From NCBI GenBank assembly GCA_964016885.1, contig OZ024756.1, forward strand, positions 36,518,001-36,582,000: a stretch of 64,000 nt of DNA, in the 5' to 3' direction. Shown here one piece after another: positions 53,147-53,419 of the stretch. The translations under genes and the position numbers were made by a program. Position 1 is the first letter of the stretch. Each line of letters opens with the position of its first letter. The notes beneath the pieces were generated by a model. That model was not told where the DNA came from and did no database searches. It saw nothing but the letters and a program-made list of their open reading frames with translations. This DNA comes from Eledone cirrhosa. Taxonomy: Eukaryota.

Positions 53147-53419
53147 TAAGTTCAATCAATATACTTTATATACCACCGCTCTGTGTTTGGTCGTTTGGAA
53201 TGAGCCGAGAGAGATCAGCCATTTTGATGTCACTTCTAGGTTTATTTACAACAATTGGTGAGCTATTACTTGGTGTGGTTGTAGATCTACTTCATTTTAG
53301 TAGCAACAAGATGCATATCTTTTCTCTGTTGATGTTCGGTATTACTGTCATAATGATGCCACACTGTTATACCTTCGAATATATCGCACCAGTTATCTGT
53401 GTCTTCGGTATTTCCCTCG
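53147..53419 (+). CDS. MCT-B exon homologous to A exon 6
   Basis: Poly-T + CAG acceptor, 273 nt, MSLLGLFTTIGELLLGVVVD. Confidence 0.88.

What the first reader, a model, noticed from the sequence alone, without database searches (positions are those of the whole stretch)
53215..53286. MCT-B shares the same TM8 'GELLxGVVVD' motif: a conserved subfamily trait
Seen: AILMSLLGLFTTIGELLLGVVVD in a paralogue otherwise well diverged from A. Both also share GFTVSLRL in TM10, with an Arg that could pair with the Glu. Inference: conservation between divergent paralogues argues for selection on a rewired binding site in a tandemly expanded SLC16 clade.
Basis: partly seen in the sequence, partly recalled or inferred. 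Interest (0 to 1): 0.7.

Follow-up and report, generated by a model that had tools for sequence, protein, structure and literature searches.

The report
Cephalopod transporter with rewired substrate pocket
An octopus-type SLC16 (MCT) transporter gene in a tandem cluster has glutamate where lactate and thyroid-hormone carriers keep their substrate-binding arginine, so it likely carries something other than lactate, but the exact ten-residue motif that was flagged is a chance-level match.

Summary
The residues are real. Gene B (8 exons, 493 aa, open frame) and gene A share GELLxGVVVD and GFTVSLRL. The Glu sits at MCT1 Arg313 and the Arg at pocket residue Leu374. The exact motif is not a subfamily trait: a 9/10 window appears in 6,654 of 10,000 shuffles, and 0 of 278 fetched proteins carry it. 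Site 313 is E in 5 and N in 5 of 10 cluster copies, and Q in A's Octopus orthologues. TM10 Arg is older and shared with molluscan and arthropod SLC16s that keep TM8 Arg. TM8 Glu also occurs in insect MCT9-like proteins without it, so the pair does not co-vary. The real finding is a coleoid clade (Octopus, Argonauta, Sepia) that lacks both the TM1 Asp and the TM8 Arg of its Asp/Arg/Arg parent, which survives on the same chromosome. The clade keeps a basic residue at 374 and varies the rest of the pocket, with a post hoc signal of diversifying selection in five young copies. Most likely it is an uncoupled carrier of zwitterions. Substrate, expression and the Glu-Arg contact are untested.

The parts
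46710..57109 (+). SLC16 gene B, 8 exons, 493 aa: 46710-46959, 47469-47612, 47733-48005, 49964-50088, 52185-52353, 53147-53419, 54508-54633, 56988-57109
   Evidence: all introns GT-AG, 1482 nt, single terminal stop; model by homology, no RNA
53147..53419 (+). Gene B exon 6 (273 nt, phase 1-1), TM7b to TM10a
53257..53286 (+). TM8 GELLLGVVVD; Glu codon 53260-53262 stands at MCT1 Arg313 and MCT10 Arg343; the Thr four residues before it stands at Asp309
54508..54530 (+). TM10 (G)FTVSLRL; Arg codon 54525-54527 stands at MCT1 Leu374
46842..46856 (+). TM1 NGLTG: Asn at MCT1 Tyr34 (Asp in the parent gene), Gly at Lys38
23877..34204 (+). SLC16 gene A: exons 23877-24348, 25218-25370, 26178-26435 (3' end uncertain), about 31166-31324, 32411-32680, 33606-33731, 34086-34204; the linker exon 4 was not located
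32518..32547 (+). Gene A TM8 GELLVGVVVD; Glu codon 32521-32523
33606..33628 (+). Gene A TM10 (G)FTVSLRL; Arg codon 33623-33625
62190..64000 (+). 5' part of SLC16 gene C (exons 62190-62439, 62707-62850, 63917 onward; continues past the window; 93% identical to B)

Best explanation
Gene B belongs to a coleoid SLC16 clade that lacks the TM8 arginine and TM1 aspartate of its parent gene and keeps a TM10 arginine, and it likely works as an uncoupled alternating-access carrier of zwitterionic or net-neutral organic solutes rather than of lactate/H+. Shown: the fold, the residue register, the pattern across the tree, the parent kept on the same chromosome and the variable pocket. Inferred: Arg374 is the remaining anchor for a substrate carboxylate or sulfonate; site 313 (Glu, Gln, Asn, Lys) tunes the pocket, with Glu suited to a substrate amine; the tandem copies differ in substrate range. 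Untested: substrate, coupling, tissue and any Glu-Arg contact.
For: Fold and family: best PDB sequence hits of the O. sinensis relative P0002 are MCT2, MCT1, MCT10 and MCT8; its AlphaFold model (pLDDT 79.9) matches MCT1 best. Register: ungapped TM8 and TM10 alignments to human MCT1 and MCT10 put E on R313/R343, T on D309 and R on L374, with S/G on K38. K38, D309 and R313 are needed for lactate; R313N kills MCT1 and is natural in MCT12, a creatine carrier (PMC9982067), which is a uniporter of a zwitterion (PMC13657109). R371/R343 binds the carboxylate in MCT8/10 (PMC12078798). L374 is within 4 A of a docked ligand (PMC13343506). Tree: the clade has UFBoot 100, 99 with P0060, 93 with the Octopus parent P0069 and 99 within the molluscan Asp/Arg/Arg group (names). 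22 of 22 clade rows lack an acid at site 34, against 38 of 166 outside. 25 of 27 clade rows have R/K at 374; the two exceptions are P0003 (intron read-through) and P0107. The parent (D/R/R) and a sister (G/Q/R) lie at C17:20.7-20.9 Mb. The 13 pocket sites are conserved in the parent clade (entropy 0.39 vs 0.99, P 0.0009) but not in the cluster (1.25 vs 0.92).
Against: No transport, expression or coordinate data. Loss of K38 and D309 is general in invertebrate SLC16s, and Drosophila Chaski is still reported to carry lactate and pyruvate (PMC5775259), so only the loss of R313 argues against carboxylates, and R374 might replace it. MCT12 is a single analogy. Arg becomes Lys in 2 of 10 copies. The pocket of the whole cluster is not significantly more variable than helix background (P 0.055 with 13 sites, 0.33 without TM7), and B, C and D show no pocket excess (ratio 0.96).
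Confidence: 0.5

Rival explanations
1. Relocated proton switch: Glu313 and Arg374 form a TM8-TM10 salt bridge that does the job of MCT1 Asp309-Arg313. Protonating the Glu would free the Arg to bind an anion, so E-type copies would be H+/anion symporters and Q/N-type copies uncoupled.
For: E with R/K at 374 occurs in 11 of 27 clade rows and 0 of 175 outside rows. It is in octopods and in cuttlefish (P0054, P0257). MCT8/10 have a TM8-TM10 Arg-Asp bridge (PMC12078798). Q and N are the neutral look-alikes of a protonated acid.
Against: The MCT8 partner is site 367, seven residues (two turns) from 374. E, Q and N are interleaved on the tree, and A differs from its own orthologues. Arg374 is shared with 44 outside rows that keep a basic 313. 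No distance could be measured.
Confidence: 0.2
2. Relaxed pocket: after duplication the TM1 Asp and TM8 Arg were lost and site 313 drifts among polar residues. The proteins are low-specificity or partly redundant carriers and the Glu has no special role.
For: Chance-level motif; Glu and Gln codons differ by one base; birth-and-death pattern with a broken copy E and gene fragments; dN/dS 0.23-1.24 among copies F-J; SLC16 expansion is common in molluscs (PMC11939762).
Against: dN/dS 0.27-0.38 from B to every other modelled copy. In F-J the pocket pN (0.152) exceeds gene-wide pS (0.041), ratio 3.7, 95% interval 1.6-7.4, more than drift allows. R/K is kept at 374.
Confidence: 0.18
3. Organic-cation carrier: Glu313 binds the amine of biogenic amines or similar cations, as might serve salivary or ink glands.
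For: An acid replaces the anion-binding Arg. Insect MCT9-like proteins also have Glu there, together with a TM1 acid (10 rows).
Against: A near-invariant Arg lines the same pocket, the TM1 acid is absent, and 5 of 10 copies have Asn. No expression data.
Confidence: 0.1

Closest known systems
Human MCT1-4 (SLC16A1/7/8/3), H+/monocarboxylate symporters
   Same: Fold and best structural match; PDGGWGW start; 12-helix layout
   Different: K38, D309 and R313 read G/S, T and E in gene B; F367 is L, S371 is V, L374 is R
Human MCT12 (SLC16A12), creatine uniporter
   Same: No Arg at site 313: Asn, as in cluster copies F-J (PMC9982067 passage); zwitterion uniport (PMC13657109 passages)
   Different: Its sequence was not fetched, so other pocket sites were not compared; orthology is not implied, and the 'MCT9/12/14-like' labels on octopus proteins are automatic
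Human MCT8/MCT10 (SLC16A2/10), aromatic amino acid and thyroid hormone carriers
   Same: Amino acid substrates; a charge pair between TM8 and TM10
   Different: They keep TM8 Arg, bridged to Asp at site 367; here the signs are reversed and the TM10 charge is two turns away
Molluscan and arthropod SLC16 group with TM1 Asp, TM8 Arg and TM10 Arg (Octopus XP_014784377; Mytilus, Ostrea, Ylistrum, Patella relatives)
   Same: Parent group on the tree; TM10 SLR motif
   Different: Keeps Asp34 and Arg313 with a conserved pocket; substrate not determined here
Insect MCT9-like group with TM8 Glu (Neocloeon P0128, Hylaeus P0131)
   Same: Glu at site 313
   Different: Separate branch; keeps the TM1 acid; no basic residue at 374
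Bombyx 3OHKT, an MCT-family 3-hydroxykynurenine importer (bioRxiv 10.1101/2023.06.01.543243)
   Same: Invertebrate SLC16 in a tandem expansion that carries a zwitterion
   Different: Sequence not seen, so its place against this clade is unknown

Membership tests
SLC16/MCT family (MFS) | MFS_1 domain and 12-helix MFS fold | tested here: met
   MFS_1 on B exon 3, E 3.9e-9, above cut-off; P0002 model matches MCT1 with TM-score 0.92 by target
SLC16/MCT family (MFS) | Best solved relatives are MCTs; PDGGWGW before TM1; long TM6-7 loop | tested here: met
   12 of 13 PDB sequence hits are MCT1/2/8/10; motif in A, B and C; low-confidence loop 212-284
H+/monocarboxylate symporters MCT1-4 | TM1 Lys38 | tested here: not met
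   G in A-D, S in F-J
H+/monocarboxylate symporters MCT1-4 | TM8 Asp309/Arg313 salt bridge | tested here: not met
   T/E in B, L/E in A, S/N in F-J
H+/monocarboxylate symporters MCT1-4 | Proton-coupled lactate transport | not testable with these tools
   needs an uptake assay
MCT8/MCT10 | TM8 Arg bridged to TM10 Asp at site 367 | tested here: not met
   E at 313 and L at 367 in B; D at 367 is seen in P0006 and copy E
MCT12-like zwitterion uniporter (works like) | Non-Arg residue at site 313 | tested here: met
   E, Q, N or K in 27 of 27 clade rows; MCT12 Asn from PMC9982067
MCT12-like zwitterion uniporter (works like) | Electroneutral, pH-independent zwitterion transport | not testable with these tools
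   needs an assay
Coleoid R313-less SLC16 clade (defined here) | One clade; no acid at 34; non-Arg at 313; Arg/Lys at 374 | tested here: met
   support 100; residue counts
Coleoid R313-less SLC16 clade (defined here) | Exact GELLxGVVVD motif | tested here: not met
   2 of 9 own models, 0 of 278 proteins
Coleoid R313-less SLC16 clade (defined here) | Glu313-Arg374 contact | not testable with these tools
   no coordinates came with the model

The most novel reading that the evidence does not exclude
Coleoid cephalopods turned a copy of an MCT into a carrier for octopine or arginine-type zwitterions, the cephalopod counterpart of the lactate shuttle, or for the ommochrome precursor 3-hydroxykynurenine. 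A reversed Glu(TM8)/Arg(TM10) pair would grip the amino and carboxyl ends, and the octopus tandem array would be diversifying that pocket under positive selection.
Probability: 0.12. Interest if true: 0.85.

Novelty: new variant of a known kind. Interest (0 to 1): 0.5.

Why it matters
The TM8 arginine anchors the substrate carboxylate in the solved MCT1, MCT8 and MCT10 structures described in the papers read here. A whole animal clade with Glu, Gln, Asn or Lys at that site, its unmodified parent still in the genome and near-identical copies that differ mainly in the pocket is a ready-made series for asking how SLC16 carriers change substrate and coupling. Cuttlefish mantle releases octopine into the medium (PMC6716058). 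My one search on octopine transport (listing only, 7 papers) showed no named carrier, so these genes are testable candidates. If they are only drifting duplicates, this is an ordinary molluscan SLC16 expansion.

Tried and rejected
PDB search with the single exon: 0 hits; Pfam missed that exon too. Expression: no RNA holder listed; the four runs laid on exons 1-3 cover introns and show no exon-exon joint among those listed, so they behave as DNA. This is no evidence either way. Glu-Arg distance: no coordinates available. Ancestral states were not computed, so the order of E/Q/N changes is read only from the tips. Recent gene conversion as the cause of the A/B match: rejected, because 7 of the 9 shared TM8 residues and 4 of the 8 shared TM10 residues use different codons. 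Glu-Arg co-evolution across the family: rejected. Three pocket offsets (Y70, M151, S154) were wrong and corrected. A's exon 4 was not found, nor exon 4 of F-J, so only B has a full model. ESM Atlas gave only generic MFS/MCT clusters. Earlier scan findings: none. Complex prediction was not run, as no binding claim is made.

Full report
1. Observation. The + strand at 53215-53286 reads SAILMSLLGLFTTIGELLLGVVVD; paralogue A has GELLVGVVVD at 32518, and GFTVSLRL occurs at 33605 and 54507. Gene B models as eight GT-AG exons giving 493 aa with one terminal stop. A has seven located exons without stops; its linker exon was not found. The closest named proteins are from Octopus bimaculoides and O. sinensis, so the genome is octopod-like (inference).

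2. Is the motif more than chance? No. A and B are 48% identical over 356 codons, dN/dS 0.27 with dS near saturation. The motif is the best 10-residue window, but 33 windows score 8/10, and 6,654 of 10,000 shuffles give a window as good. B's closest copies read GVFLD and A's Octopus orthologues GQLCIGFIVD. The exact motif is in 2 of 9 own models and 0 of 278 fetched proteins. Synonymous differences at 7 of 9 shared TM8 residues exclude recent conversion.

3. The cluster. The TM7-9 exon finds 12 places in the genome, 10 of them within about 204 kb on C17. Copies A-E have Glu and F-J have Asn at the site. TM10 has Arg in 8 and Lys in 2 of 10. Copy E has stops and a frameshift, and gene fragments lie between F-J.

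4. What the residues are. Alignments of P0002 and of a six-sequence profile to solved MCT1, MCT2 and MCT10 are ungapped through TM8 and TM10. Glu falls on MCT1 Arg313 (MCT10 Arg343), the Thr before it on Asp309, the TM10 Arg on Leu374, Ser/Gly on Lys38 and Asn/Ser on Tyr34. An AlphaFold model of P0002, a stand-in 65% identical to B in this exon, has mean pLDDT 79.9 and matches MCT1 best. From papers, passages only: K38, D309 and R313 are essential for lactate, R313N is inactive, and Asn is natural there in the creatine carrier MCT12 (PMC9982067). MCT12 is a uniporter of a zwitterion (PMC13657109). MCT8 R371 binds the carboxylate and bridges to D424, the F367 site (PMC12078798). MCT7 keeps K38 and R313 and carries taurine (PMC8980330). 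L374 is within 4 A of a docked ligand (PMC13343506). Further pocket residues come from PMC13265630. So both flagged residues line the pocket.

5. Distribution. I aligned 194 fetched proteins and 9 own models to half-profiles. The proteins came and from the best 150 of 12,101 representatives, so this is a nearest-neighbour sample, not the whole family. Of 219 C-half rows, 17 with a gap at either site were dropped. In 175 rows outside the clade, site 313/site 374 were basic/basic 44, basic/other 82, Glu/other 10, other/basic 3, other/other 36 and Glu/basic 0. In 27 clade rows they were E/R 11, Q/R 6, N/R 5, N/K 2, K/R 1, E/P 1 (intron read-through) and Q/G 1 (clade membership listed by hand). 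The outside Glu carriers include insect MCT9-like proteins. The two residues therefore have separate histories and meet only in cephalopods in this sample.

6. Origin. FastTree on 196 rows and IQ-TREE on 38 chosen rows give one clade (support 100) of the cluster with proteins from Octopus, Argonauta and Sepia (names). It is sister to P0060 (N/Q/R; 98, 99), then to the Octopus protein P0069 (D/R/R; 79, 93), inside bivalve and gastropod D/R/R proteins (99). No clade row has an acid at site 34 (22 of 22), whereas 128 of 166 outside rows do. In this genome the parent (D/R/R) lies at C17:20.745-20.767 Mb, a G/Q/R sister at 20.874-20.896 Mb, and K/R and Q/R members at 41.69-41.78 Mb. Read from the tips, a duplicate lost the TM1 Asp and TM8 Arg, kept the TM10 Arg and radiated along one chromosome (inference; no test of one clade was run). 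E, Q and N are interleaved on the tree. A cuttlefish-like E/R member (P0054, 90% identical to Sepia pharaonis P0257) is a 500-aa frame on contigs of at most 1,704 nt. That suggests a spliced transcript if its gene has introns as in octopus; it says nothing about gene B.

7. The pocket varies. At 13 literature pocket sites, six parent-group proteins are far more conserved than helix background (entropy 0.39 vs 0.99, P 0.0009). Ten cluster proteins are not (1.25 vs 0.92, P 0.055; 0.33 without the two uncertain TM7 sites). Among the five young copies F-J, 7 of 13 pocket sites vary against 42 of 343 others (P 0.0006). Pocket pN is 0.152 against gene-wide pS 0.041, ratio 3.7 (bootstrap 1.6-7.4). 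Caveats: I saw the pattern by eye before testing it, pairs are not independent, conversion is evident (exons 2 and 5 are about 95% identical between B and F-J, other exons about 70-77%), exon 4 of F-J was not found, and B, C and D show no excess (0.96).

8. Mechanism. Most likely (0.5) these are uncoupled carriers of zwitterions or net-neutral solutes, with Arg374 as the anion anchor and site 313 as a tuning residue. Rivals: a relocated Glu-Arg proton switch (0.2), a relaxed pocket (0.18), a cation carrier (0.1). Against the best reading, most invertebrate SLC16s already lack K38 and D309, yet Chaski is reported to move lactate (PMC5775259; abstract start and one passage). Candidate substrates are hypotheses. 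Octopine is a cephalopod anaerobic end product released from mantle (PMC6716058 passages; Storey and Storey 1979 seen only as a reference title). 3-hydroxykynurenine is imported by a silkworm MCT (bioRxiv 10.1101/2023.06.01.543243, parts 1-2 of 4 and passages; its supplements, which hold the tree and sequence, were not seen). That cephalopod chromatophores use ommochromes is recalled.

9. Literature. Four searches (SLC16 + octopus; monocarboxylate transporter + cephalopod + expansion; monocarboxylate transporter + octopus; monocarboxylate + cephalopod) listed no paper on this clade, judged from titles and abstract starts; the library lacks most subscription journals. SLC16 expansion in molluscs is in print (PMC11939762 passages; supplements not read and may list the O. 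sinensis genes). PMC12487505 and PMC11917092 (passages) add nothing on residues. TM numbering follows the MCT papers and the model's helix order.

10. Verdict. Observation confirmed; interpretation partly supported. The flagged motif is chance-level and the Glu-Arg pairing is unproven, but it points to a real coleoid SLC16 variant without the family's carboxylate-binding arginine, not found in the papers searched. New variant of a known kind; interest 0.5.

Noticed in passing
G000:C17 about 36.638-36.746 Mb (L018-L029), copies F-J: Five copies 89-99% identical whose amino acid differences concentrate on pocket sites 34, 151, 371, 374 and 398; pocket pN/pS 3.7, post hoc.
   Followed up: partly
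window 47469-47612 and 52185-52353 against copies F-J: Exons 2 and 5 are about 95% identical between B and F-J while other exons are about 70-77%: gene conversion or exon exchange within the cluster.
   Followed up: partly
exon 6 equivalent (window 53147-53419) in P0063/P0204, P0259, P0260: Clade members from Octopus, Sepia and an unnamed record lack just this in-frame segment (TM7b-TM10a): a possible recurrent exon-skipped isoform or an annotation artefact.
   Followed up: no
G000:C17:20.745-20.896 Mb (L062, L067-L070) and 41.69-41.78 Mb (L011, L033, L034, L041): Parent gene (Asp/Arg/Arg), sister (Gly/Gln/Arg) and Lys/Arg and Gln/Arg members all on the cluster's chromosome.
   Followed up: yes
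P0128, P0131, P0095, P0104, P0142, P0118, P0183, P0099, P0187, P0106: A separate SLC16 group, with named members from insects, has acids at both site 34 and site 313: a candidate cation carrier.
   Followed up: no
P0001, P0004: Public Octopus models fuse the C-half of the A orthologue to the next gene; likely annotation errors.
   Followed up: partly
window 15200-16339 (-): Single long ORF (379 aa) with a tetraspanin domain, E 1.1e-12; intronless or a retrocopy.
   Followed up: no
window 8136-11575 (+): LINE-type element: endonuclease ORF and a 909-aa reverse transcriptase ORF.
   Followed up: no
window about 26800-29600: About 2.8 kb ACC/ACT-type triplet array with GC skew near -1 inside an intron of gene A.
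   Followed up: no
window 23877-24170: Gene A has a long acidic N-terminal extension with a poly-Glu run, absent from B-J, and a Lys one residue before the MCT1 Lys38 position.
   Followed up: no
window 887-2194 and 4910-5653 (+): Two long low-complexity ORFs without a Pfam match, probably exons of a neighbouring gene.
   Followed up: no
window about 47000-47190: Very high-copy short interspersed repeat in intron 1 of gene B.
   Followed up: no
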